41,240 nt of DNA from a virus (Duplodnaviria > Heunggongvirae > Uroviricota > Caudoviricetes), in IMG/VR virus record IMGVR_UViG_2541047725_000010; one strand, written 5' to 3'. Positions 2,690-35,611 of the stretch are shown here, piece after piece (within the stretch, counting starts at the first letter, position 1; every line of letters starts with the position of its first letter). A program made the position numbers and the translations under genes. The notes under the pieces are model-generated. The model made no database searches, had not been told where the DNA came from, and saw nothing but the letters and a program-made list of their open reading frames with translations.

Positions 2690-3092
2690 CGTCTTTTCTC
2701 CCCGGAATTAACTCGCGTGGATTATCGGAACGGTGATAGAGCCAGATACCAATTCGCACTGCGACAATTGCTGATACGAATGCGCCAGCAGAGAAAACAA
2801 TCCCTTTCTCGAACGAGTCCTGCGTGATGGTAGGGATCAGGCTGGCTATGCCGATAAGAATTGATGCTGCTGGTTTGTAAAAAAGAAGGCCGCAGAGAAA
2901 GCTGAGCATCGACAAGAATACGCGACGACGAATTGGATACTCTACCGCAGAGGTAACAAAAATTACCGCACCAGCAAGAGCACCGAGCGCCACCTCTGGC
3001 GGAACACCTACGATAACCGCAGCAAGAGAGCTCACACTAAGCCATTGATTTAAAGACTCAGTTGTTATGTTAACCGACATAGCACACACCAT
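2676..3092 (-). CDS. Holin-like membrane protein
   Basis: 138 aa, 3-4 predicted TM helices, charged C-terminal tail; first gene of the lysis cassette. Confidence 0.5.
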   Translation of the reverse strand: MVCAMSVNITTESLNQWLSVSSLAAVIVGVPPEVALGALAGAVIFVTSAVEYPIRRRVFLSMLSFLCGLLFYKPAASILIGIASLIPTITQDSFEKGIVFSAGAFVSAIVAVRIGIWLYHRSDNPRELIPGRKDDGNA

Positions 3093-3255
3093 TTTTTTTG
3101 TACATATCGAACCTCTTCACTTACAGGTCACCAAACACAATAAACCATATATGTTTAACCATCAGATATTCTGAAATAACTATCAATTCATTGGTTTTTG
3201 ATGACAATATTCATAAACAACCATAAATGTAAGGATGTTTATTAGTTGCCAAAAT

Positions 3256-5862
3256 TTATTTCCTGCAAACTCCAGATGATGTTAATCCATCAAAAATAAC
3301 CTGCACTCTGGCAATAACAACATCAACTCCAGAAGTCGTTTCACTTGCATAACCAAGTTTTATTTTAGATACAATATCCTGAGTAAGTTCAGATATTTCA
3401 GTTTCTGCAATGTTACCAGAGGCCATGTGATTATCGTATGCCATAGAATGAATTCCATTATTGACATCGATTGAACTAGTATGTTTGTGAAAAATAGATG
3501 GGTTTACCTGAAACGAATTTGAACCGATAAGATCAGAAGATACTCCATTCATCACTGCAGTACAGCGTGGAATATTATTATCGGTTATTGTCATATGCAG
3601 ACGGTTACCAGTTAACCCCTCACCAAGTGTGACATAATACGCCAATTCTCCACCTGCATATTGTTTCCCCTCAACAATAACAGTAATCCCTCTTAATTTC
3701 TGATTAGCTAGCAAAAACTTATTACTGTCTATATAGCATTTATTTGCGGAACCAAAAACAGCCCCTTCTAAAATATCTGATGAATAGGAATAAATAAGGT
3801 CACCAGAAACAAAGGAAAGAATATCAGATACGTTTCCTTTTTTAGATAAGTTGGGAGAATAGCTATTAACTATTTCATATTGTCCTGTGATAAAATCAAG
3901 GTAAACGCCATCAGTTTTCATCTCTTTAAAGAAAATGCTATTAAAGCATCCATCAAGAACCGGTGGATATATTCTAGAGCTTGCATAAGCTGTTGGGTGA
4001 TTCTTATTATTACCACTACCAGGCGAATAAACATCTTCGTTAGTCATTGACTTTTTAAGCTTAACAGGAATCATCGGCTGCATATCAATTTTGCAGTTCC
4101 CTGAACCACCGATGCGAGGATAAAATAAACCACCAAACCTTACAATATTACTACTGAATAGTATTTCGTTATCGTTAAGTGTTATCTCAACGAAGTTTCC
4201 AATAAGTTTAAATTCAACTGAAAACAAACCAAGTGGAGCAGATAATTTAACAATATTGCGCATAAAAACACCTACAGTCCCTGTTGATGCAGTATAGTGT
4301 GTGGTTTCAAAGGCAGAGCCTGTATATTTCAAGTTAATGAAATTATTATGGTATGAAGACAATTGGAATTGAATCCCAGAACTAAGGATTTCAATATCTA
4401 CAAATTGAATCCTTACGGAGTAAGAATATGATAAATCTTCATATTCATAAGGCAATGTAACATCTTTTGAAATAGTTGCCCTCACATAATTACCAGAAAC
4501 CACATCAACCCCATCACGTACTGCATTAAAGTAACGATTAAAATCAATAAGCCCAGCGCCAACATACTGCGCATATGAACGAGTCCATCCTGCCATTGCG
4601 TTTCGTCCATTCTGAGCTTCTAAACTGCTAAATTCAGAGTCACTTGTGGTACTTGATGGGAGGATATTTGTACAAAAAACAATTTCAGGCATTGAAGTAA
4701 TATCATTCAGTTCAGCCATCAATTTAAAAAAAGTTTTCTGCGGGAAGTTACCAACATCCCAACCATCTCCGTCATTCATGCCAAAAGCAATAATAACAAC
4801 ATCAGGGTTAATATCACGAATGTAATCAATCCAGCGTCTGTTCGTGTCTGAATACCATGGGTACTGTGAGTTATAAGAAGTAATTGCTGGTGTATCTTTT
4901 CCAAGGTCATAGTACCTCATTCCACCAATTGCTCTGTTAAATAAAGTAGAACTTGGGAATTTCTCTTGCAAAACTCTCTTAAGATGAGCGGCAAAAATGC
5001 TTGATCGATCCACTGTGCTTATATTATATGGGGCACTTAAGCTGTCACCAACTAACACTATTTTTGAGTTAGGCCTTGATAATCTCTCAAGTGTTTTAGA
5101 TGTGACTAAACTGCAGGAATTAATGAACTGAGTACTATTTAGCGTCTGTTCAAGTGTATCACCAAATCTGGTACCAACGTATGATGATCCGTTGACACTT
5201 GCTAGCTTAAGGCATAAATCAGCAGTATCTGTAATTGAAAAAATAGGAACAGGACGTCCTAAACTGTCATACCCCTGAATTGAGTTTGCCCTAGAAGATG
5301 CTGATGCCATTTCGCTTACTATCTCAGGGAAGCGGAGTGTTTTAGATATGTTGCTGTTAATAACTCCTTTGATAGATGAGTCTGTATATTTCTTCGTGGA
5401 AGCGTCCTGAGGAAATAATGGATCATCAAGGTTACGAATACGATTGCCGAGTGCATCGTAGTAAGTGGCACTAAATGATGGTTTACGAAGAGCCAGCCGA
5501 GCCATGCTTTTGACTAACTGGATCAGCATCGTTAGCTTATCAAAAGCATCCTCATGCACTTCCGCAAAGAACTTACCCTGATTGCGCAGATCAGTTTCCT
5601 GTGTAACCGGTAGCTCTCGTGATATAGAAATCTTATAGCCATTGGCCAACGCCTTCGACAATATTACATTTCCACCATTGTATCCTCCGGCCCCGGTAAC
5701 TATATAATCAGTATCAAGAGTCAGTACGGTGATATTTTCATGAATATCAACAACCTGCACAATCAAATCAGATTTATTGAAAACCCTAAAGGCATACGGA
5801 AACGATGTCGTAACGCCGTTACCGGTGTATTCGTTGTGGTCAACTTCGGTTGAGACCGTCAT
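3256..5862 (-). CDS. Tailspike / receptor-binding protein with internal GDSL/SGNH esterase domain
   Basis: 868 aa; conserved N-terminal anchor MTVSTEVDHNEYTGNGVTTSFPY; SGNH blocks VLVGDSLS (about 5040-5065), NRAIGG, FGMNDGDG (about 4761-4787); GGAG RBS; distal part visibly AT-richer. Confidence 0.8.
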   Translation of the reverse strand: MTVSTEVDHNEYTGNGVTTSFPYAFRVFNKSDLIVQVVDIHENITVLTLDTDYIVTGAGGYNGGNVILSKALANGYKISISRELPVTQETDLRNQGKFFAEVHEDAFDKLTMLIQLVKSMARLALRKPSFSATYYDALGNRIRNLDDPLFPQDASTKKYTDSSIKGVINSNISKTLRFPEIVSEMASASSRANSIQGYDSLGRPVPIFSITDTADLCLKLASVNGSSYVGTRFGDTLEQTLNSTQFINSCSLVTSKTLERLSRPNSKIVLVGDSLSAPYNISTVDRSSIFAAHLKRVLQEKFPSSTLFNRAIGGMRYYDLGKDTPAITSYNSQYPWYSDTNRRWIDYIRDINPDVVIIAFGMNDGDGWDVGNFPQKTFFKLMAELNDITSMPEIVFCTNILPSSTTSDSEFSSLEAQNGRNAMAGWTRSYAQYVGAGLIDFNRYFNAVRDGVDVVSGNYVRATISKDVTLPYEYEDLSYSYSVRIQFVDIEILSSGIQFQLSSYHNNFINLKYTGSAFETTHYTASTGTVGVFMRNIVKLSAPLGLFSVEFKLIGNFVEITLNDNEILFSSNIVRFGGLFYPRIGGSGNCKIDMQPMIPVKLKKSMTNEDVYSPGSGNNKNHPTAYASSRIYPPVLDGCFNSIFFKEMKTDGVYLDFITGQYEIVNSYSPNLSKKGNVSDILSFVSGDLIYSYSSDILEGAVFGSANKCYIDSNKFLLANQKLRGITVIVEGKQYAGGELAYYVTLGEGLTGNRLHMTITDNNIPRCTAVMNGVSSDLIGSNSFQVNPSIFHKHTSSIDVNNGIHSMAYDNHMASGNIAETEISELTQDIVSKIKLGYASETTSGVDVVIARVQVIFDGLTSSGVCRK

Positions 5863-5965
5863 GTTAAATCTCCAGATAGTCGCAGCACCCGTTGCGCCGC
5901 ATATCTGGTTATTCTATTACCTGAAAAACCATATATGTATAGAAAGACTATAAATACCAATAGAT

Positions 5966-5982
5966 ATTACCTTTATGGTAAT
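5966..5982. promoter_or_regulatory. Operator-like palindrome ATTACC-TTTAT-GGTAAT
   Basis: Perfect inverted half-sites 5 bp apart; one of at least 11 copies of the same motif in intergenic regions. Confidence 0.5.
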
Positions 5983-6018
5983 TTGCAAAACGTGCTGGAT
6001 AGCAAACAAATTATTTGA

Positions 6019-6038
6019 TACTGTATAAATATACAGTT
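6019..6038 (+). promoter_or_regulatory. LexA (SOS) box overlapping the -10 region upstream of gene 6058-6315
   Basis: TACTGTATAAATATACAGTT: CTGT-N8-ACAG, 18/20 to the TACTGTATATATATACAGTA consensus; 20 bp before the GGAG RBS and ATG at 6058. Confidence 0.7.
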
Positions 6039-6057: not shown

Positions 6058-6315
6058 ATGCAGCGGTATCACTATCCACTGGAAGACGGATTTACCGAAA
6101 GGATTCACACGCCGGGAGGCGTCAGGTCACTGGTGGAGGGATCGCACTTGATGAAATTACTCCGGGATCTCGATAAGGATGGATTTAATGTCGATGGCCC
6201 ACTTGCCGAACTGACTGCACTGATTAACTACGTCACCAGCTCACAGATGTCTATGCGGGATCTGCAAACACATCTCGACTATTGTGCCGAACAATTACGA
6301 AAACAAACCAGATAA
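6058..6315 (+). CDS. Small protein paralogous to the antirepressor C-terminal domain (SOS-controlled)
   Basis: 85 aa from ATG 6058 (track ORF 6040-6315); aligns by eye at about 50% identity with residues about 160-240 of the adjacent antirepressor (e.g. LMKLLRDLDKDGFNVDGPLAELT vs LMNLLNQLQEDGHDVSGAAAELT). Confidence 0.6.
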   Translation: MQRYHYPLEDGFTERIHTPGGVRSLVEGSHLMKLLRDLDKDGFNVDGPLAELTALINYVTSSQMSMRDLQTHLDYCAEQLRKQTR

Positions 6316-22832: not shown

Positions 22833-23125
22833 TCCTGTTCACTGGCCTCTTTGGCCATCTTCAAATACTGTTCAGGGCAATGCGCCATAACGCGCTGAAA
22901 CAGTTCCAGCGCCAGATTGCGTTGCCCCTCATTAAACGCCATTGCCATAGCGTCCATCGGTGAGATAGCGGAAAACACACGGCCTTTCTCCAGCACCGAC
23001 CAGACAACGCGACGCCCCTGTTCACTGCTCATGACAAAGCGAATGTCATCAATTTCACGCTGCGCCATGTCACGTTGCTTACGGGCGTTTTCTTCTTTCA
23101 GTTGATCGTCTTCGTAATCTGTCAT
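22829..23125 (-). CDS. Hypothetical head-module protein
   Basis: 98 aa; ATGA overlaps with both neighbours. Confidence 0.45.
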   Translation of the reverse strand: MTDYEDDQLKEENARKQRDMAQREIDDIRFVMSSEQGRRVVWSVLEKGRVFSAISPMDAMAMAFNEGQRNLALELFQRVMAHCPEQYLKMAKEASEQE

Positions 23126-24801
23126 TGTGATTGCCCACCCTGACCACTAACTGCATTCGCCATAGCTGACAACACACTCGGATCCGAAGTTTTAGCTTCG
23201 CTTAGCGTCTTGGCACCCTGTGCCGCAGCCATCCCCATCGCCATCATTTGTTGCTGCTGTTGCTGCTGTGCCCGTTGCTGGCGAGCCTGCTCAACCTGTT
23301 CCTGCGGAACAATGACGGTTGGAGACACTCCAGACATATCAGCGAATGCATCGATCGCCTGATCAACGTTGAGTTTGTCGAGAGCTTCTGGTTTCGCTTG
23401 CGCAAGTTGACCAATGAAGTTGACCGTGGATGCCAGACTGGACAGGCCGATAGACTTCTGCGCCTGAGCCATGACGGAAATGTATTCGACCTTCAGGGGC
23501 ATACCTTCCATCGCGTCAGGCGGTGGCGGCAGCATGTTTTTACGCACCATCATCGAGAAAGCGCGGTCAATGAGAGGATTAAGACATTCGTCGTTCAGAC
23601 GCTCCAGAACCGGCCCCAACATCAGAAGTTTTTCTTCTTTCATTTCGATCACCGCTTCAACAGGCATCGAGCGGGTATTGATGTTCTGCAACATCATGAA
23701 CAGATCGACAAAGTAGGCGCTGTTAATGATTTGCCGAGTGTCCTGAATGTCTGCTACCAGATCTGCTGTACTGGGGTTAACCAGATAAGCAGGCCTGAAA
23801 CCATCCTGACCAGTAATCTGATCGATATACGTGATGTCGCCAGGAAGAAGGGAGGCACGCTGATTCTTGAGGGAAGTCGGAGCAACCATCGGCGGATTGG
23901 TGGCTTTATCAATCAACTGCGACTTGCGCTTCTGAAGAAGCTGCAATGCCTTAACAGGTCCAAGCGCCAGCATACCCGGGCATGATGATCCATAAACATC
24001 TTCGCCGTTAACTTCCCAGCGCGGAGCCATAATTGGAAACTCATCGAATCCGGACTCACGCAACAACTTGTCGTTATCGCCACCAACCTCGTAATAAACC
24101 GATTTGAATGGCTTGTTCTTGCTATCCAGCTTCGATGTATCGCGGTCAATGTTCGGGTAAACCGAATGCATCACTTCAATCCACTTCTCGTAGGTGCCGC
24201 TTTCCCACATGCTTTTTACGGATTCGCTGACGTTATTTAGCCCGAACTCCTGAACAAGCTGACGAACAGTCATAGCGAACTTGCGAAAACAGGTGTCCAC
24301 ACTGCCACGAGGTGAGTTAGCTAGGTAGTAACTGCCTATCGGGAATGGCATTGTGCGAATGATGTCCTCGTCATCTTCCAGCACTGCCATTGCACCAGTG
24401 CTGTATGTGCCGAGGCTTCCGTATAACTGCGGCAGCGACTGATAGAGATTCGACTTATTGAACATATCGTTCATGCGGTTCTGCACCGCCTCAAGCCACA
24501 ACTTAACAGGGCCATAATCCATCATTTCAGGATCTGGCGTAGCCAGGCGAAACCACGGACGCGCGGGGCTTGTGATGCCTGACATCATGCCGCTGGCGAG
24601 AGTGCGCGCCGCCATAGTCCCGGTCGAATCAATAATGCGTGTATTGCGTCGATCGTTACGGTTGACCTCAGAAGTCAGAAAGCGGGAACCACGCGGGTTG
24701 ATGTAATCACTCAACTCGCGCCAGTGCGGCTCGAACGACTGACGCTCGCTTTCAAGTTGTGCGAACTGTTTGTTCAATCGCTCTTTAGTTGTTTCCGCCA
24801 T
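23122..24801 (-). CDS. Portal protein
   Basis: 559 aa; position between terminase and scaffold; Gln/Ala-rich C-terminus; GGAG RBS. Confidence 0.75.
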   Translation of the reverse strand: MAETTKERLNKQFAQLESERQSFEPHWRELSDYINPRGSRFLTSEVNRNDRRNTRIIDSTGTMAARTLASGMMSGITSPARPWFRLATPDPEMMDYGPVKLWLEAVQNRMNDMFNKSNLYQSLPQLYGSLGTYSTGAMAVLEDDEDIIRTMPFPIGSYYLANSPRGSVDTCFRKFAMTVRQLVQEFGLNNVSESVKSMWESGTYEKWIEVMHSVYPNIDRDTSKLDSKNKPFKSVYYEVGGDNDKLLRESGFDEFPIMAPRWEVNGEDVYGSSCPGMLALGPVKALQLLQKRKSQLIDKATNPPMVAPTSLKNQRASLLPGDITYIDQITGQDGFRPAYLVNPSTADLVADIQDTRQIINSAYFVDLFMMLQNINTRSMPVEAVIEMKEEKLLMLGPVLERLNDECLNPLIDRAFSMMVRKNMLPPPPDAMEGMPLKVEYISVMAQAQKSIGLSSLASTVNFIGQLAQAKPEALDKLNVDQAIDAFADMSGVSPTVIVPQEQVEQARQQRAQQQQQQQMMAMGMAAAQGAKTLSEAKTSDPSVLSAMANAVSGQGGQSQ

Positions 24802-25022: not shown

Positions 25023-25111
25023 ATCAATGACTCCGTACGCAATTAAATTATTACCAATTTAACCACATATGATTTATTTATCGTAGATAGTTGACATTTA
25101 ACGCACGAATT

Positions 25112-25128
25112 ATTACCTTTCAGGTAAC
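25112..25128. promoter_or_regulatory. Operator-like palindrome ATTACC-TTTCA-GGTAAC
   Basis: Upstream of the head operon; a TTGACA hexamer lies at 25091-25096. Confidence 0.45.
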
Positions 25129-25449: not shown

Positions 25450-25526
25450 GTGGCATTAGCTCAGTTGGACAGAGCAACCGCCTTCTAAGCGGTTGGTCGC
25501 AGGTTCGAATCCTGCATGCCACGCCA
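25450..25526 (+). tRNA. tRNA-Arg, anticodon UCU (phage-encoded)
   Basis: Hand-folded cloverleaf: 7-bp acceptor GTGGCAT/ATGCCAC, D-stem GCTC/GAGC, anticodon stem ACCGC/GCGGT with loop CTTCTAA, T-stem GCAGG/CCTGC with GGTTCGAATCC, discriminator G and encoded CCA. Confidence 0.85.
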
Positions 25527-25569
25527 GAATCACGCCTAAGGACCGTGATGCCAGAAGTTCCAGGTGCTT

Positions 25570-25611
25570 GGCGGTGATGCTTTCCCTTGAAGGACTATCA
25601 CCGCCCTTTTT
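25570..25611 (+). terminator. Hairpin plus T-run downstream of the tRNA
   Basis: GGCGGTGAT...ATCACCGCC 9-bp stem with large loop, then CTTTTTA. Confidence 0.35.
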
Positions 25612-25689
25612 ACAGCAGGACGCCATTGCGATGACTTCATGCTGTAAACCAGTACAGCCACGGAAGGCATAACTCATTGCTTCCAGTTC

Positions 25690-25712
25690 GCCCACTTCAG
25701 TGGGCTTTTTTT
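25690..25712 (+). terminator. Intrinsic terminator
   Basis: GCCCAC-TTCA-GTGGGC followed by TTTTTTT. Confidence 0.6.
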
Positions 25713-25725
25713 CTAGTGACTACTG

Positions 25726-25742
25726 ATTACCTTATGGGTAAT
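25726..25742. promoter_or_regulatory. Operator-like palindrome ATTACC-TTATG-GGTAAT overlapping a candidate promoter
   Basis: 32 bp upstream of ATG 25774; TAATAT -10-like hexamer at 25739-25744. Confidence 0.5.
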
Positions 25743-25773
25743 ATACTGCAAACTAATAACACAAGGCCGTGAC

Positions 25774-26664
25774 ATGCTTGACTTCATCCGTGACATTTAC
25801 TCCTCTTTCCGCCAAGCATCTCTTGAGCGGGTGAAAAGCCCGTTCCTTGGGGCATTTGTTTTTTCCTGGCTTTGCTTTAATTGGCAGATGTTAGCAATTC
25901 TATTTTTTAGTTCTAAGGATATTGAAAAGCGCCTTGCTATTATTAATGGCTCTTTCGGCATCGTCAGCTTTTTAATTGCGCCAATATGCACTACAGCATT
26001 GATAGTTATCCTTTTACCGCAAATTAATAAATTGATTACAATAATACAAGATAAACCTAACTCAGACACAATTGAAATGAGCCTTGCATCTAAAATAAAG
26101 ATCGCCGAACTGCAGCAACTATTAGCAGAAAATGAAGCAAGAAAGAAACTTGCTGATAAAAAAGAAGAACGCTTCATTGAAGAGAATATTATTTCAATAA
26201 AAAAAGACCATGAAAAAGCAATAGATAACCTTAAAGACAAAGAAAGTAAAATCTCAAATCTCACGGACACAATAACTGAACTTCAGAGCAAACTGGTTAA
26301 AGCTGAGGCCACTCTCAAAGTTGAACAGGAGTCAAGATCCCAAGTGCAGAATGAATTGATTATTGAAAAAGAGAACAAGCGGAAATTAGAAGACAACATT
26401 CTGCACCTTAATTTAAGTTTAAAAAAAAACCAATCAGAATTGGCCATTGCAAAAGAAGCCTATGATAATACCTTGATGGCTTATAATGAACTTAACACAA
26501 CATTAAAAAAAGCAGAAAGCTCAATAATAAACTTCAATGCTAACTTTCCTTTTTTAACTGACATAAATAACAGCACCCCAAATACATACTTAAAAATAAA
26601 TAAAAATGCATGGGAGCATTTAGTTAGTTTAAATTTAAGTCTAAAGGAGAAAATACAAAAATAA
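25774..26664 (+). CDS. Membrane-anchored coiled-coil protein (cargo gene, function unknown)
   Basis: 296 aa; two N-terminal TM helices then about 200 aa of heptad-like Lys/Glu/Leu-rich sequence; very AT-rich; opposite strand to the flanking late genes. Confidence 0.6.
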   Translation: MLDFIRDIYSSFRQASLERVKSPFLGAFVFSWLCFNWQMLAILFFSSKDIEKRLAIINGSFGIVSFLIAPICTTALIVILLPQINKLITIIQDKPNSDTIEMSLASKIKIAELQQLLAENEARKKLADKKEERFIEENIISIKKDHEKAIDNLKDKESKISNLTDTITELQSKLVKAEATLKVEQESRSQVQNELIIEKENKRKLEDNILHLNLSLKKNQSELAIAKEAYDNTLMAYNELNTTLKKAESSIINFNANFPFLTDINNSTPNTYLKINKNAWEHLVSLNLSLKEKIQK

Positions 26665-26687
26665 ATAACCAATCCACTATGGCATAT

Positions 26688-28157
26688 TTACTCATACGGG
26701 TCATAATCTATTATAGCCCTGCCCTGCTGCTGCCGTGGGTCATTAGTTTTCTTGGCTACCGGGAACGCAAACGTCAGCAGTAGCGCATCGCCTTTACCAG
26801 GTGAACGCCCAAGTCGTTCTTTGATATCTTCCTTCGGTTCGATAACGATTTTACCGTCCACGCGAACTTTGTACTCTGCCGCAGACAGATCGTCCGCTGT
26901 TTCCTGGTCATCCAGCATCCCGCCCAACCTCAGCCATGTCTTGCATGAGTTGAACATCTCCCCGCGCTTGTTGAGCATCTGAGGGTCAGTAGACGCGCCG
27001 CCGAACGGAACAAGTTGCCAAGTACGCCCCCAGCCATCACCGATTGACTTCAAACCGGTTCCGTAACCGAAGTCGATGAACACCGCGTCAGCCTGATACT
27101 GGTCTTCAAAGTCAGCGATACGCTTCGCCATAATCAGATCGTCAGTGGTCTTGTTGCCAGTCCACAGCACCTTACTGTGCAGCCCCTGCCGCAGGTATAT
27201 CACAGCGTCATCAACACCGGAGTATGCCGGGTCAACGCCGATTATCACCGGAGCATGTGCCACCTGCGCAGCGGTTACCACCCGTTTCATTGCCTCGTCA
27301 GTAAGACCGGTAGGGATAAACTGCAATTCAGATGCATCCGGGAATATGCCGCGCACACGGATTTTAACGAAGTCGCTGTCTTCCCCGTAGTCATCAACCC
27401 ATTTCTGCAACTGCTGTTTGTTAGTGCCTTCCACCGTCCGGCTGTCAATCTGCGCAGTTTTCCAGCGGTGTTTATATTTGCGGAAACATTCGCGGAAACG
27501 CCCGGTATTACGCGTCGGGTTCCCGAACGCCACCCAGATGATTTCGGTGTCTTCGTCCGTCAGCGCACCCTCTGCTACATCCCACACCAGATCGGCAATG
27601 TTGGATGCTTCGTCGAAAACCACGATGATGCGTTTGCGCTCGTTGTGTAGTCCGGCGAATGCCTCAGTGTTGTGCTCAGACCAGGGGATTGCGTCAGCTC
27701 GCCACCGCTTGTCGTGCCCAGGATCATTGCTGTACATCGCGGTAGCGGTACAGGTAAACCAGTCTTTCGTGATGGCAAGGTTCGACCACTTGATAATTTC
27801 CGGCCAGGTCTTCGTTCGTAGCTGGTTGTCGGTGTTGGCGGTCACCACGACCTTACAATCCTCGCAAGTGGACATGCCCCAGTTGATCAGCATTGAGATG
27901 AATGCGGATTTACCAATACCGTGACCAGAAGCGCGTGCCAGCATAAGCGGCTGATAGCGCGTCTCTGGATTCTGCAGGTGATCACGTATCTCTCGGAACG
28001 CATCGGCCTGCCACTGACGTGGACCGGTAGCATGTGCCAGTTCAGTCCCCTCTTCCCCCCAAGGGAACGCATAGAGGGCATAGCCAAGCGGATCGTGAGT
28101 GAACCCTGCAATATCTTCGATTAACTGCTCTTCAGGAGATAACGCTGCATCTGTCAC
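26688..28157 (-). CDS. Terminase large subunit
   Basis: 489 aa; ATPase then nuclease domain order; upstream of portal; overlaps terminase small. Confidence 0.8.
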   Translation of the reverse strand: MTDAALSPEEQLIEDIAGFTHDPLGYALYAFPWGEEGTELAHATGPRQWQADAFREIRDHLQNPETRYQPLMLARASGHGIGKSAFISMLINWGMSTCEDCKVVVTANTDNQLRTKTWPEIIKWSNLAITKDWFTCTATAMYSNDPGHDKRWRADAIPWSEHNTEAFAGLHNERKRIIVVFDEASNIADLVWDVAEGALTDEDTEIIWVAFGNPTRNTGRFRECFRKYKHRWKTAQIDSRTVEGTNKQQLQKWVDDYGEDSDFVKIRVRGIFPDASELQFIPTGLTDEAMKRVVTAAQVAHAPVIIGVDPAYSGVDDAVIYLRQGLHSKVLWTGNKTTDDLIMAKRIADFEDQYQADAVFIDFGYGTGLKSIGDGWGRTWQLVPFGGASTDPQMLNKRGEMFNSCKTWLRLGGMLDDQETADDLSAAEYKVRVDGKIVIEPKEDIKERLGRSPGKGDALLLTFAFPVAKKTNDPRQQQGRAIIDYDPYE

Positions 28158-28786
28158 TGATTACCATCCTGACGTTCTTTGAGTCGCTTCCTGGCTGCCG
28201 CTATGCGATCAGCAATTGTCACATTCACATTAACATCCAGGCGCTCTTTGAACGCGTTAACGTCGACGTGCTTACCGATGAGCTCGAGGTTTTTCACCTT
28301 GTCGGGCCATTTCACCTTCTTCAGGATATGCTCGACATCCTCAACAGAGAGATCCGCCTCGCCATTCTCTTTTTGCAGAGAAGCCTGGGTCGTCTTGATG
28401 GTAGCGATATCCATAGCACTGAGAGAGGTACGCCAGACCTTCGGCCATTCAGCGATCGGCTTCATCCCGCCGTCATCGTTCAGGATATCCAGCACGTCCA
28501 TCTGGTCGATTTCCACCAGGCGCATGAGAACGTAATCAGCACTGACGCGCATTCGTTTGTTGCGCTCCTCCATCAACTCGGCAATCCGTTTTTGAATGCG
28601 TTCATCGCGCATCATGACACTGGCTTTAACTGCCGCTGTATTTGGGGAGAATCCTGCGTTAATCGCTGCCTGAGTCTGGTTTTCAGGCGTTTTGATGTAT
28701 GACTGGCAATAAGCCTCCTGCATTGCTGTTAGTGGCTTAAATTGCGTTGATTTGCGTTTATAGGTTTTAGGTTCAGCAGGCATCAT
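28154..28786 (-). CDS. Terminase small subunit
   Basis: Start placed at ATG 28786 (GGTGG RBS), about 210 aa; the track start 28864 would put a terminator hairpin inside the ORF. Confidence 0.65.
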   Translation of the reverse strand: MMPAEPKTYKRKSTQFKPLTAMQEAYCQSYIKTPENQTQAAINAGFSPNTAAVKASVMMRDERIQKRIAELMEERNKRMRVSADYVLMRLVEIDQMDVLDILNDDGGMKPIAEWPKVWRTSLSAMDIATIKTTQASLQKENGEADLSVEDVEHILKKVKWPDKVKNLELIGKHVDVNAFKERLDVNVNVTIADRIAAARKRLKERQDGNQ

Positions 28787-28828
28787 AACCACCGTGGTAA
28801 TAGTTACCGTTGTGGTAATAGTACCATG

Positions 28829-28855
28829 CAAAATAAAGCCGCCATAGTTGGCGGC
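28829..28855 (-). terminator. Putative terminator in the late-operon leader
   Basis: On the minus strand GCCGCC-aactat-GGCGGC followed by TTTATTTTG. Confidence 0.45.
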
Positions 28856-28896
28856 AGTATTCAAAACCCATCAAATTCATCATGCATAACCCACTC

Positions 28897-34641: not shown

Positions 34642-34872
34642 TCATGAGTAGAAGAAGTATGCCAGTTCTGCTTTTGAGCGCAGCCATTGTCTTGTTTTAC
34701 AGGCTTTAAAAAGCCCATTCATCAATACTTTACCTGGCATTTTGCGCTTACCTGTTAAGTGAGTCTGGATATAGTGACTCGTCGTTCCGGCTTCCTGTGC
34801 GAAGGCTTCACGCTCATCCGGAGTAAGTGCAAGCCAGTGCTTTTTGAAATCGAAATGTCCGTTATCGCTCAT
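34642..34872 (-). CDS. Cro-like HTH transcriptional regulator
   Basis: 76 aa; first gene of the minus-strand early operon, divergent from the repressor-like gene; HTH-like segment. Confidence 0.55.
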   Translation of the reverse strand: MSDNGHFDFKKHWLALTPDEREAFAQEAGTTSHYIQTHLTGKRKMPGKVLMNGLFKACKTRQWLRSKAELAYFFYS

Positions 34873-34955
34873 AGCTATTGCCTGATATTTATTTCAGATA
34901 ATAAATATTCACCCATAAGGTAACAAAAATCAAGGATAGTTACCTATGGGGTGCA

Positions 34956-34972
34956 TTTACCTGTTGGGTAAT
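34956..34972. promoter_or_regulatory. Operator-like palindrome TTTACC-TGTTG-GGTAAT in the divergent immunity region
   Basis: Within the 154-bp gap between the cro-like and repressor-like genes; a second inverted pair GGTAAC...GTTACC lies at 34919-34944. Confidence 0.5.
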
Positions 34973-35026: not shown

Positions 35027-35611
35027 ATGAAAAGTATCCAGGACGTCCGCAGGCAAAATCTCAACGACTTGATCGACCGTGAATTCAATGGTGTTCAGAC
35101 GCGGATGGCAGAAAAACTTGGAACTCAGGCAAATCTGGTAAACCGCTGGGCTCTTGGCAAGAAGGTTATCGGCGACCAGGTTGCGCGAAAAATTGAAGCT
35201 GCCGCCAATAAACCCCGTAACTGGCTTGATATCGATCGCTCGCTTTCTCAGGAAGGTTTTCAGCCTGTCGGCCCAAGCGACATTGGTCAGCTGGCGGCTC
35301 ACAACCTGGAACGCTGGATGAGCGAAAGCCGCGACCTTTCAACACAGGGAAAACTTCACCGCGCATCCGGCGTCGCCCAGGTGACAATCAGCCGCCTGTT
35401 AAACAATGAGGTCAGCGTTTCCATTTCCACCCTGGAGAATGTTGCATCCGCATTCGGGCGTCACGGCTATGAATTACTGATTCACCCGCACGACCCTGCG
35501 ACCATCAACTATGACCGCTCGCGCTACGCATTGTTACCCGAAACCGAGAAAGCAAAGATCGAAAGTTACATTGAATTTGTCATCAACCAGAACGAAAAAA
35601 ACAAACAATAA
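35027..35611 (+). CDS. Repressor-like regulator with two HTH domains, no recognisable S24 peptidase domain
   Basis: 194 aa; two HTH-like segments (GVQTRMAEKLGTQANLVNRW and ASGVAQVTISRLLNNEVSVS); divergent from the cro-like gene. Confidence 0.6.
   Translation: MKSIQDVRRQNLNDLIDREFNGVQTRMAEKLGTQANLVNRWALGKKVIGDQVARKIEAAANKPRNWLDIDRSLSQEGFQPVGPSDIGQLAAHNLERWMSESRDLSTQGKLHRASGVAQVTISRLLNNEVSVSISTLENVASAFGRHGYELLIHPHDPATINYDRSRYALLPETEKAKIESYIEFVINQNEKNKQ

What the first reader, a model, noticed from the sequence alone, without database searches (positions are those of the whole stretch)
25690..26664. AT-rich membrane-anchored coiled-coil gene inserted antisense within the late operon
Gene 25774-26664 is on the opposite strand to all flanking structural genes, is much more AT-rich than them, is preceded by a terminator and an operator-like palindrome overlapping a candidate promoter, and encodes two TM helices followed by about 200 residues of coiled coil. 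Independently transcribed, compositionally foreign cargo genes of this kind often encode superinfection-exclusion or abortive-infection functions.
Basis: partly seen in the sequence, partly recalled or inferred. Interest (0 to 1): 0.62.

Follow-up and report, generated by a model that had tools for sequence, protein, structure and literature searches.

The report
Repressor-gated membrane coiled-coil cargo gene
A foreign-looking, AT-rich gene wedged backwards between the DNA-packaging and portal genes of an E. coli prophage encodes a membrane-anchored coiled-coil protein of a large, uncharacterised phage family, and its promoter carries the prophage's own repressor-binding site, so it is probably switched on when the virus wakes up rather than while it sleeps.

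Summary
ORF 25774-26664 (+, 296 aa) is a real, conserved gene in the lowest-GC stretch of the window. It lies antisense between terL and portal of a phiV10/epsilon15-like (Uetakevirus) prophage. It encodes two TM helices, a roughly 160-residue single helix and a small C-terminal domain.

It is a mobile single-gene cargo cassette. The slot holds unrelated cargo in phiV10, ZX5 and TL-2011b. Family members also sit in lambdoid nin regions, next to a lambdoid integrase, and in a Vibrio inovirus.

The family (phrog_13369/35327/4780) has 2290 representative clusters and no Pfam, NCBIfam, PADLOC or structural match. Its N-terminal membrane module is conserved and its coiled coil is hypervariable.

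The new finding concerns the "operator-like palindrome". TTACC-N5-GGTAA occurs 14 times in the window against 0.64 expected, including at OR and OL, so it is the prophage's CI/Cro operator. It sits in the promoter spacer, as it does at PR. The gene is therefore probably repressed in the lysogen and fired with the early genes. Copies moved into lambdoid phages keep the -35 and -10 but have lost the palindrome.

The function is untested. This exact protein is a published machine-learning "predicted novel defense gene". My best guess is phage-versus-phage exclusion or abortive infection at the inner membrane.

The parts
25091..25127 (+). Upstream promoter of the + strand island: -35 TTGACA (25091-25096) with operator TTACCTTTCAGGTAA (25113-25127) over the -10 region. 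It probably drives tRNA-Arg and any read-through into the cassette.
   Evidence: The site is conserved at the same position in phiV10, TL-2011b, BUCT711, EC.W1-9 and ZX5.
25450..25526 (+). tRNA-Arg (anticodon TCT), on the same strand as the cargo gene.
   Evidence: ARAGORN; Rfam tRNA 73 bits.
25527..25689 (+). Conserved non-coding spacer of the slot's left flank. It contains an invariant inverted repeat TTTACAGCA...TGCTGTAAA and CTGTAAACCAGTACAG (25642-25657). Function unknown.
   Evidence: Alignment of 7 loci. It has no Rfam match.
25690..25712 (+). Intrinsic terminator (GCCCACTTCAGTGGGC plus T7) ending the tRNA unit. It marks the left boundary of the variable cassette.
   Evidence: Similarity to phages with other cargo stops here.
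25716..25744 (+). Cassette promoter: -35 GTGACT (25716-25721), 17-nt spacer, -10 TAATAT (25739-25744).
   Evidence: Conserved in register in homologous cassettes from E. coli, Klebsiella, Cronobacter, Hafnia and lambdoid phages. The upstream 60 nt are 73-97% identical, against 45-58% at third codon positions.
25727..25741 (.). Operator TTACCTTATGGGTAA (prophage CI/Cro operator) inside the promoter spacer and overlapping the -10.
   Evidence: 14 sites in the window against 0.64 expected. It has the same geometry and almost the same sequence as the PR operator TTACCTTATGGGTGA. It is the top palindrome in three complete Uetakevirus genomes. It is present in 15 of 18 cassettes in operator-rich phages and in 3 of 24 elsewhere.
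25763..25766 (+). Shine-Dalgarno-like AAGG, 7 nt before the ATG.
   Evidence: Read from the sequence.
25774..26664 (+). Cargo gene, 296 aa (RefSeq WP_021523210.1, annotated 'hypothetical protein').
   Evidence: There are 176 homologues at E<=1e-3. phrog_13369 matches at E=9e-143.
25774..26193 (+). Conserved N-terminal membrane module (aa 1-140): amphipathic helix 2-19, TM1 24-46 (motif FSWxxFNW), short loop, TM2 60-82, and a juxtamembrane helix.
   Evidence: Mean pairwise identity 0.72. dN/dS is 0.05-0.08. A profile of this module finds 2290 representative clusters. R19, P23, G26, N36, W37, P70 and P82 are nearly invariant across distant members. Positive-inside counts favour N-in/C-in topology.
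26194..26661 (+). Hypervariable C-terminal part (aa 141-296): the remainder of the 98-257 single helix, then a beta-hairpin and helix (258-296).
   Evidence: Mean pairwise identity 0.28, forming 38 clusters at 50% identity. 22% of pairs with N-terminal identity >=80% have C-terminal identity below 30%. AlphaFold2 pLDDT is above 90 for residues 120-250.
34909..34971 (.). OR: three operators (34909, 34940 with 2 mismatches, 34957) between the cro-like gene (34642-34872, -) and the repressor gene.
35027..35611 (+). Prophage repressor (194 aa, HTH_3). It is the presumed protein that binds the operator in the cassette promoter.
   Evidence: Pfam. It is 100% identical to the vB_EcoP_ZX5 ORF21 repressor, whose overexpression abolishes lytic transcription (PMC9782041).
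35669..35745 (.). OL: two operators flanking the TTGACA-N16-TAATCA promoter of the + strand recombination operon.

Best explanation
Region 25713-26687 is a self-contained, horizontally mobile accessory ('moron'-type) cassette. It occupies the variable terL-portal slot of a phiV10/epsilon15-like (Uetakevirus) prophage integrated at guaA.

The protein (anatomy shown; topology inferred):
- It is an inner-membrane protein with a cytoplasmic N-terminus, a two-helix TM hairpin, and then a cytoplasmic single helix/coiled coil of about 160 residues ending in a small beta-hairpin/helix domain.
- It belongs to a large uncharacterised phage family in which the membrane module is strongly conserved and the coiled coil is hypervariable.

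Regulation (sites shown; binding inferred):
- Transcription starts from a sigma-70 promoter, GTGACT-N17-TAATAT.
- The promoter spacer contains the prophage repressor's operator, arranged as at PR.
- In this prophage the gene should therefore be shut off or strongly damped in the stable lysogen, and fired with the early genes and the neighbouring tRNA-Arg when the repressor is inactivated or on fresh infection.

Function (inferred, untested):
- The most likely role is phage-versus-phage conflict at the inner membrane, either exclusion or abortive infection of competing phages.
- In this model the conserved TM module is the effector or membrane-partner binder, and the variable cytoplasmic coil determines specificity.
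- Gating by the repressor would supply protection in the window when repressor-based immunity is off.
- Where the cassette has moved into lambdoid phages the operator has decayed, so there it probably behaves as an ordinary constitutively expressed prophage gene.
For: Real gene under selection:
- 176 close homologues.
- N-terminal dN/dS of 0.05-0.08.
- The N-terminal profile finds 2290 representative clusters.

Cargo status:
- Lowest-GC 975-nt window in the 41 kb.
- The same slot holds a Gp49/Sf6-gene-66 gene in phiV10 and ZX5, a different ORF in TL-2011b, and divergent family alleles in EC.W1-9, BUCT711 and Cronobacter prophages.
- The slot's left flank is present in 501 of 5426 E. coli genomes, but this allele is present in only 30-31.
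- Other insertion contexts are lambdoid nin regions, a site next to int/xis in a Hafnia prophage, and a Vibrio inovirus. In every case it is a single gene.

Operator:
- 14 sites against 0.64 expected.
- 11 of the 13 sites within the prophage lie in the 7.8% of its DNA that is non-coding.
- Sites occur at OR and OL and at homologous positions in three complete Uetakevirus genomes.
- The PR operator, TTACCTTATGGGTGA, sits in the PR spacer just as the cassette operator does.
- The repressor is identical to one shown experimentally to shut down lytic transcription.

Natural experiment:
- The operator is present in 15 of 18 cassettes in operator-rich loci and in 3 of 24 elsewhere (Fisher p=5e-6, not corrected for phylogeny).
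- Lambdoid copies keep the -35 and -10 but have lost the palindrome arms.

Topology: K+R counts over 105 homologues are N-tail 3.7, loop 2.0 and post-TM2 2.8.

Conflict-type evolution: N-terminal identity 0.72 against C-terminal 0.28, with mosaic pairs.

Independent prediction: DefensePredictor log-odds 5.9-6.05 for this exact protein.
Against: - No experiment exists for any family member that I could find.
- No homology or fold match to any characterised exclusion, abortive-infection or defence protein.
- The DefensePredictor score leans on low GC and on neighbourhood features, so it is not independent of the AT-richness. Its overall validation rate was 45%.
- Repressor binding to this operator has not been shown. 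A single isolated operator may be only partly occupied, so some expression in the lysogen cannot be excluded.
- The TM region of the model has low confidence (pLDDT 50-60), and the topology rests only on charge counts.
- Synonymous sites are saturated, so the C-terminal variability could reflect relaxed constraint typical of coiled coils rather than diversifying selection.
- An early-expressed membrane protein could equally serve the phage's own lytic cycle.
Confidence: 0.5

Rival explanations
1. This is the first reader's model: a classical lysogen-expressed moron. The promoter fires constitutively from the prophage, and the protein gives the lysogen superinfection exclusion or abortive infection against incoming phages.
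For: - AT-rich single-gene cassette with its own promoter, in a variable slot.
- In lambdoid and Hafnia contexts there is no cognate repressor regulon. The locus has 0-1 operator sites, and most copies have lost the palindrome, so expression there is probably constitutive.
- DefensePredictor flags the protein.
- One isolated operator may be weakly occupied.
Against: - In this prophage, and in 15 of 18 operator-rich loci, the operator is intact, sits in the promoter spacer, and overlaps the -10, as at PR. PR must be off in a lysogen.
- The upstream 60 nt are more conserved than synonymous sites, which argues that the regulatory arrangement is maintained by selection.
Confidence: 0.2
2. The protein is a dispensable helper of the phage's own lytic cycle and has nothing to do with defence. 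Possible roles are host takeover or cell-division block, control of lysis timing, or tethering of replication or packaging to the membrane. The last would resemble phi29 p16.7, an early membrane-anchored coiled-coil protein (recalled from memory).
For: - Operator wiring predicts co-expression with the early lytic genes and the tRNA.
- The architecture is membrane anchor plus cytoplasmic coil.
- The conserved membrane module suggests a fixed host or phage partner.
Against: - The gene is sporadic. It is replaced by unrelated genes in close relatives with otherwise syntenic genomes.
- It moves between unrelated phage types, including an inovirus.
- In lambdoid phages it sits antisense, without the operator.
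- Hypervariability of the C-terminal half is unusual for a housekeeping helper.
- No DNA-binding, holin, spanin or division-inhibitor family matched.
Confidence: 0.2
3. The protein is a lysogenic-conversion factor that changes the host envelope or virulence, with no role in phage biology.
For: - It is a membrane protein carried by prophages of clinical E. coli (ST405-type O102:H6 and others).
- Several carriers are urinary or blood isolates.
Against: - Predicted repression in the lysogen.
- The predicted bulk of the protein is cytoplasmic.
- The family is spread across environmental Enterobacterales and Vibrio phages.
- A related Uetakevirus lysogen showed no change in growth, biofilm, stress response, adherence or virulence (PMC9782041). 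That phage carries different cargo in this slot.
Confidence: 0.05
4. The ORF is a virion or assembly protein of the late operon, or it is a spurious ORF.
For: - It is located between terL and portal.
- Weak coiled-coil matches to scaffold, tape-measure and tail-needle entries.
Against: - It is on the opposite strand to the late operon and has its own promoter.
- It has a TM hairpin.
- It is absent from close relatives that make virions.
- All the structural-protein matches fall in the coiled-coil part only and below family thresholds.
- Strong purifying selection rules out a spurious ORF.
Confidence: 0.02

Closest known systems
Phage-encoded inner-membrane superinfection-exclusion proteins: P22 SieA, HK97 gp15, T4 Imm (properties recalled from the literature; SieA from PMC10883804, abstract seen)
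   Same: - Single accessory genes of phages that encode inner-membrane proteins.
- Often carried as morons in variable slots.
- T4 Imm is expressed early in the lytic cycle, as is predicted here.
   Different: - No sequence or profile similarity; the Pfam scan at E<=1 returns no Sie or Imm family.
- This protein is larger, and most of its mass is a predicted cytoplasmic coiled coil rather than membrane or periplasmic segments.
- Expression here is tied to the repressor operator.
Abortive-infection or defence proteins with membrane effectors and long helical sensor or transmission domains: lambda RexB, Zorya ZorA
   Same: - Membrane anchor plus an extended cytoplasmic helical domain.
- A conserved membrane part with a variable distal part fits effector/sensor logic.
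   Different: - The ZorA model matches only the coiled-coil part, at E=0.015 and 14 bits against a cutoff of 250.
- There is no ZorB-like or RexA-like partner gene; the cassette is always a single gene.
- No PADLOC model matches beyond coiled-coil noise.
Moron elements of temperate phages, in the sense used for the HK97 and lambda families
   Same: - Extra gene between genes that are adjacent or differently filled in relatives.
- Own promoter.
- Deviant base composition.
- Antisense to its neighbours.
   Different: - No terminator of its own downstream.
- The promoter is under the prophage repressor's operator, whereas morons are typically described as expressed from the repressed prophage.
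Gp49 / Sf6 gene 66 family (PF13876), the cargo in the same slot in phiV10 and ZX5
   Same: - Occupies exactly the same terL-portal slot, on the same strand, after the same tRNA, spacer and terminator flank.
- Also of unknown function.
   Different: - Unrelated, soluble protein of about 120 aa.
- No promoter or operator of its own, so it must depend on read-through from the upstream operator-controlled promoter.
DefensePredictor 'predicted novel defense genes' (Science 2026, PMC13092281)
   Same: The identical protein WP_021523210.1 is in that list, as a single-gene unit with log-odds 5.9-6.05.
   Different: - It is a prediction only. The protein is not among the 94 cloned units.
- The validated TM-containing systems DS-13, DS-40 and DS-43 are not homologous to it.

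Membership tests
Phage moron (accessory cassette) | Inserted between genes that are adjacent or differently occupied in related phages | tested here: met
   The terL-portal slot holds Gp49-type, TL-2011b-type or family genes in related phages. Similarity of the flanks stops at 25712 and resumes at the terL stop.
Phage moron (accessory cassette) | Base composition different from the surrounding genome | tested here: met
   GC 0.338 against 0.484 +/- 0.043; lowest window in the 41 kb.
Phage moron (accessory cassette) | Own promoter and own terminator | tested here: inconclusive
   The promoter GTGACT-N17-TAATAT is conserved with the gene. No terminator-like site lies between the stop codon (26664) and terL (26688).
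Phage moron (accessory cassette) | Expressed from the repressed prophage | not testable with these tools
   No transcript data were available. The sequence predicts the opposite here, because the repressor operator lies in the promoter spacer.
Superinfection exclusion families in Pfam (SieB PF14163, Imm_superinfect) | Match to the family profile | tested here: not met
   The Pfam scan at E<=1 lists only LemA (E=0.09) and two DUFs. None of 105 distant members matches these families.
Known or candidate defence systems (PADLOC-DB 2.0) | Match to a system protein model outside low-complexity or coiled-coil regions | tested here: not met
   Only JetC, LmuB and DndD coiled-coil segments match, at E of 1e-2 to 1e-7.
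Zorya ZorA | ZorA profile above cutoff, plus an adjacent ZorB | tested here: not met
   NF033916 scores 14 bits against a cutoff of 250. There is no partner gene in any context examined.
phrog_13369 / 35327 / 4780 superfamily (function unknown) | Full-length match to the family profile | tested here: met
   phrog_13369 at E=9e-143 over residues 2-296; phrog_35327 at 9e-75; phrog_4780 at 6e-26. Distant members in EC.W1-9, BUCT711, KO-TP1 and vB_VipaK match the same three PHROGs.
Uetakevirus CI/Cro regulon | Operator TTACC-N5-GGTAA overlapping a sigma-70-like promoter | tested here: met
   A perfect site at 25727-25741 lies inside the spacer and over the -10. The same motif is at OR, at OL and at homologous sites in four related genomes.
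Uetakevirus CI/Cro regulon | Repressor binds the site and represses transcription | not testable with these tools
   The repressor is identical to ZX5 ORF21, which shuts down lytic transcription when overexpressed. Operator binding was not mapped there.
Virion structural proteins | Homology to a structural family, or a position within the co-directional late operon | tested here: not met
   Opposite strand. Only coiled-coil-level matches were found.

The most novel reading that the evidence does not exclude
The family is a new class of single-protein, membrane-acting anti-phage effector. A conserved TM hairpin would disrupt or block the inner membrane when a hypervariable cytoplasmic coiled coil recognises a competitor's product. 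In Uetakeviruses it has been placed under the prophage repressor's operator, so that it switches on exactly when repressor immunity collapses. That would be a 'hand-over' from immunity to exclusion during induction. The wiring is lost when the cassette moves into phages with other repressors.
Probability: 0.2. Interest if true: 0.72.

Novelty: new variant of a known kind. Interest (0 to 1): 0.5.

Why it matters
- Prophage cargo genes are usually assumed to be expressed from the silent prophage for the benefit of the host. Here the sequence suggests a cargo gene deliberately tied to the lysis-lysogeny switch. Comparative data show that this tie is kept only where the matching repressor exists.
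- If the protein excludes or aborts competing phages, it would protect the inducing phage's own burst rather than the lysogen. That phase of phage-phage competition has been little explored.
- The family is large: 2290 clusters at 50% identity. It has no annotation anywhere and contains a sharply conserved membrane motif, so one experiment would annotate thousands of genes.
- As a by-product, the analysis defines the previously unmapped operator of the phiV10/ZX5-type repressor and its whole regulon. This is directly testable.

Tried and rejected
Homology and fold searches that found nothing useful:
- Pfam, NCBIfam and PADLOC on the protein and on 105 distant relatives gave only coiled-coil noise from SMC, JetC, LmuB, myosin and similar.
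- A PDB profile search matched only coiled coils.
- Foldseek against PDB and BFVD gave nothing below E=1. I did not run afdb50, because the model is essentially one long helix and its TM part has low confidence.

Ideas tested and dropped:
- Link to the neighbouring tRNA-Arg(UCU): the gene has only 2 AGA codons, so I dropped the idea of codon supply.
- dN/dS test for diversifying selection in the C-terminal half: synonymous sites are saturated even for the closest non-identical homologue, so the test is not interpretable.
- A second, different palindrome upstream of family genes in another phage lineage (loci L053-L056): it is not conserved in L054 and L057 and is not repeated elsewhere in those loci. 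Dropped.
- Validated TM/coiled-coil defence proteins DS-13, DS-40 and DS-43 from DefensePredictor: not homologous.

Searches that failed or were uninformative:
- The search for related loci with the diverse alignment A4 failed because it has no conserved stretch. I redid it with A3.
- The GTDB species-representative scan returned only 2 loci.
- Papers on SPC32H antirepression and on the epsilon15 genome were not held. What I say about them is from memory.
- Rfam found nothing but the tRNA.
Full report
**1. What is there**

The window is an E. coli prophage of the phiV10/epsilon15 type (genus Uetakevirus) integrated next to guaA. The flanks of the finding match phiV10, TL-2011b, ZX5 and related phages at 92-97% identity. 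A RefSeq genome identical over the region is annotated terS, terL, the gene, tRNA-Arg, a small ORF, portal, and so on.

ORF 25774-26664 (+) encodes 296 aa. It is RefSeq WP_021523210.1, annotated 'hypothetical protein'. With the ORF's own base composition, an open frame of 296 codons has a chance probability of about 7e-11.

The cassette 25713-26687 has GC 0.338. That is the lowest of all 975-nt windows in the 41 kb, where the mean is 0.484 and the sd 0.043.

terL (26688-28157) and portal (23122-24801) are on the - strand. The gene is not alone on the + strand, however. A tRNA-Arg(TCT) lies at 25450-25526. It is followed by a conserved 160-nt spacer and the hairpin-plus-T7 terminator at 25690-25712. 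That terminator therefore ends the tRNA unit. It is part of the conserved left flank of the slot. Nothing terminator-like follows the gene's own stop codon.

**2. The protein**

- Hydropathy gives two hydrophobic segments, at residues 24-46 and 60-82.
- An AlphaFold2 model built on 60 homologues has mean pLDDT 79.5. It has short helices through the membrane region (pLDDT only 50-60), then one uninterrupted helix over residues 98-257 (pLDDT above 90), a beta-hairpin at 262-275 and a final helix at 277-295.
- Over 105 diverse homologues, mean K+R counts are 3.7 in the N-tail, 2.0 in the inter-TM loop (net charge -0.7) and 2.8 in the 18 residues after TM2. By the positive-inside rule this favours N-in, loop-out, C-in, which makes the coil cytoplasmic. 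This is an inference, not a measurement.

**3. The family**

- The gene has 176 homologues at E<=1e-3 across Escherichia, Citrobacter, Leclercia, Hafnia, Cronobacter, Klebsiella and Enterobacter. All are annotated hypothetical.
- It matches phrog_13369 (E=9e-143), phrog_35327 and phrog_4780, all of unknown function.
- Residues 1-140 are conserved, with mean pairwise identity 0.72 and minimum 0.56. The rest is not, with mean 0.28 and 38 clusters at 50% identity. 22% of pairs that are at least 80% identical in the N-terminal part fall below 30% in the C-terminal part.
- Against the closest non-identical homologues the N-terminal dN/dS is 0.05-0.08 and the C-terminal 0.2-0.5. Synonymous sites are saturated, so positive selection cannot be claimed.
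- A profile of the N-terminal module finds 2290 representative clusters at E<=1e-3 in 1.84 billion representatives, and 347 at E<=1e-10. The match is nearly always at the N-terminus of proteins of 230-350 aa.
- Across distant members R19, P23, G26, N36, W37, P70 and P82 are nearly invariant.
- Neither the protein nor any of 105 distant relatives matches a Pfam, NCBIfam or PADLOC family outside coiled-coil noise.
- The PDB profile search and Foldseek against PDB and BFVD give nothing specific.

**4. It is mobile cargo**

The same slot holds different genes in related phages:
- a Gp49/Sf6-gene-66 family gene in phiV10 and ZX5;
- an unrelated 115-aa ORF in TL-2011b;
- family alleles only 27-31% identical to this one in EC.W1-9 and Klebsiella phage BUCT711;
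- closer alleles in E. coli and Cronobacter prophages.

In 5426 complete E. coli genomes the slot's left flank occurs in 501. This 296-aa allele occurs in 30-31, the 201-aa allele in 25, and the TL-2011b cargo in 11. Gp49-type genes occur in 243-445, though not all of those are necessarily in this slot.

Outside Uetakeviruses the family gene sits:
- antisense in the nin region of lambdoid phages, between a DnaC-like gene and NinG/Q;
- between int/xis/methylase and the early-left operon of a Hafnia lambdoid prophage;
- in the accessory region of a Vibrio inovirus.

It is always a single gene with no conserved partner.

**5. The palindrome is the prophage operator**

This is the main new result.

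TTACC-N5-GGTAA occurs 14 times in the window at up to 1 mismatch, against 0.64 expected. None of 100 shuffles reaches 14. Of the 13 sites within the prophage, 11 lie in the 7.8% of its DNA that is non-coding. The other two lie in a probably over-extended 5' end of the terS annotation.

The sites are located as follows:
- Three sites (one with 2 mismatches) lie between the cro-like gene and the repressor gene. This is OR.
- Two sites bracket a TTGACA-N16-TAATCA promoter just downstream of the repressor gene. This is OL/PL.
- The others precede terS, the DUF1064 gene, tRNA-Arg, and the + strand genes beside the tailspike.

It is the most frequent palindrome in three complete Uetakevirus genomes, at homologous places, and ZX5 carries the same set of sites.

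The repressor encoded at 35027-35611 is 100% identical to vB_EcoP_ZX5 ORF21. Overexpression of ORF21 reduced endolysin and holin transcripts by 99.97-99.99% and abolished free phage (PMC9782041). That paper did not map operators.

At PR the arrangement is TTGATT, then a 17-nt spacer containing TTACCTTATGGGTGA, then GAATAT. At the cassette it is GTGACT (25716-25721), then a 17-nt spacer containing TTACCTTATGGGTAA (25727-25741), then TAATAT (25739-25744). The geometry is the same, the central five bases are the same, and the cassette site is the closer match to consensus. PR must be silent in a lysogen, so this promoter should be too, at least largely. Binding itself is inferred.

**6. A natural experiment supports function of the operator**

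I examined 42 non-redundant family loci. Of the 18 loci that contain at least 2 other perfect operator sites, 15 have the operator (up to 1 mismatch) at -47/-48 from the family gene's ATG. Of the 24 loci lacking other sites, only 3 do (Fisher p=5e-6; the loci are not phylogenetically independent).

The lambdoid nin-region copies (L023, L024, L005, L052) retain GTGACT and TAAnAT in register but have mutated palindrome arms. The Hafnia copy still has an intact but orphan site, which looks like a recent transfer.

The 60 nt upstream of the ATG are 73-97% identical between loci whose third codon positions are only 45-58% identical. The regulatory region is therefore under selection.

**7. Function**

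Nothing experimental exists for the family in the literature I could search.

The identical protein appears in the DefensePredictor supplement (Science 2026, PMC13092281) as a single-gene 'Predicted novel defense gene', with mean log-odds 5.88 and 6.05 against a strict threshold of 4. It is not in the table of 94 cloned units. That study validated 45% of its units overall, and low GC is its strongest non-embedding feature. The prediction is therefore modest support that is not independent of the AT-richness. The TM-containing systems it did validate (DS-13, DS-40, DS-43) are not homologues.

The following observations bear on function:
- sporadic distribution in hot-spot slots of unrelated phages;
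- a conserved membrane module joined to a hypervariable cytoplasmic coil;
- single-gene organisation;
- constitutive-looking promoters after transfer to other phages.

Taken together, these make a role in phage-versus-phage conflict at the inner membrane (exclusion or abortive infection) the most likely explanation. In this prophage, operator gating would turn the gene on when repressor immunity is lost.

A dispensable role in the phage's own lytic cycle is the main rival. Candidates are host takeover, lysis timing or membrane tethering.

**8. Verdict**

The gene is cargo and a defence role is plausible, but it is not independent of the prophage switch.
- It is not a member of any characterised family.
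- It is best described as a new variant of a known kind: a phage accessory membrane gene wired to the repressor operator.
- Interest is moderate. The function is unknown, the family is large and entirely unannotated, the regulatory twist is unusual and cleanly testable, and the operator regulon of this repressor type appears not to have been described in the papers I could access.

Noticed in passing
window 2942-35745 (sites at 2942, 5967, 6347, 7395, 25113, 25727, 28786, 28804, 32564, 32626, 34909, 34940, 34957, 35669, 35731): There is a genome-wide regulon of the palindromic operator TTACC-N5-GGTAA. Besides OR and OL it precedes tRNA-Arg, terS, the DUF1064 gene, and all the + strand accessory genes beside the tailspike: an 85-aa ORF, a Bro-N gene, and a YafO toxin module. 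The same layout occurs in BUCT711, EC.W1-9 and ZX5. Nearly every sigma-70-like promoter of this phage type seems to be under the one repressor.
   Followed up: partly
window 6019-6038, upstream of ORF 6058-6315 (+): A near-consensus LexA box, TACTGTATAAATATACAGTT, lies 20 nt upstream of an 85-aa ORF, with an operator at 5967 as well. This looks like the LexA-controlled small antirepressor described for the related Salmonella phage SPC32H (recalled from memory; that paper was not held).
   Followed up: partly
window 25527-25689: A 160-nt non-coding stretch between the tRNA and the terminator is conserved even in relatives that lack the tRNA. It includes an invariant run, CCCTTTTTACAGCAGGACGCCATTGCGATGACTTCATGCTGTAAACC (an inverted repeat), and a CTGT-N8-ACAG motif at 25642-25657. 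It has no Rfam match. phiV10 annotates a - strand ORF here (PhiV10p04) that overlaps the tRNA and is probably spurious.
   Followed up: partly
window 28780-28870 (- strand): Two adjacent operators (28786 and 28804) sit directly upstream of the likely true terS start (MPAEPKTYKRK...). A terminator-like hairpin (GCCGCCAACTATGGCGGC plus T-run) precedes them on the - strand. This suggests repressor control and/or a terminator-antiterminator checkpoint at the entry to the packaging and late genes. The annotated TTG start at 28864 is probably too far upstream.
   Followed up: no
window 35027-35611: The 194-aa repressor appears to contain two helix-turn-helix regions: a YdaS/Cro-like region at residues 21-61 (E=3e-4) and HTH_3 at 106-147 (E=1e-9). 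This is unusual for a CI-type repressor that binds a simple 5-N5-5 palindrome.
   Followed up: no
window 3001-6000: A second low-GC block (GC 0.34-0.41) lies at the tailspike end of the prophage. I did not examine it. It may hold further cargo or a serotype-specific tailspike module.
   Followed up: no
L005 (Klebsiella phage KO-TP1) 3800-4000: Upstream of the lambdoid nin-region copy of the family gene there is a degenerate remnant of the Uetakevirus slot's conserved spacer (...aacgccattg...catgctctaaaccctgtgacatcc...). The cassette therefore reached the lambdoid phage by recombination out of a Uetakevirus, carrying flank DNA with it.
   Followed up: partly
L053-L056 (IMG/VR contigs), about 20-50 nt upstream of the family gene: In another phage lineage the family gene is preceded by a different inverted repeat, for example GGTAACATTCATTAAAAAATGTTACC. 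It is not conserved in the closest relatives (L054, L057) and is not repeated elsewhere in those loci, so its meaning is unclear.
   Followed up: partly
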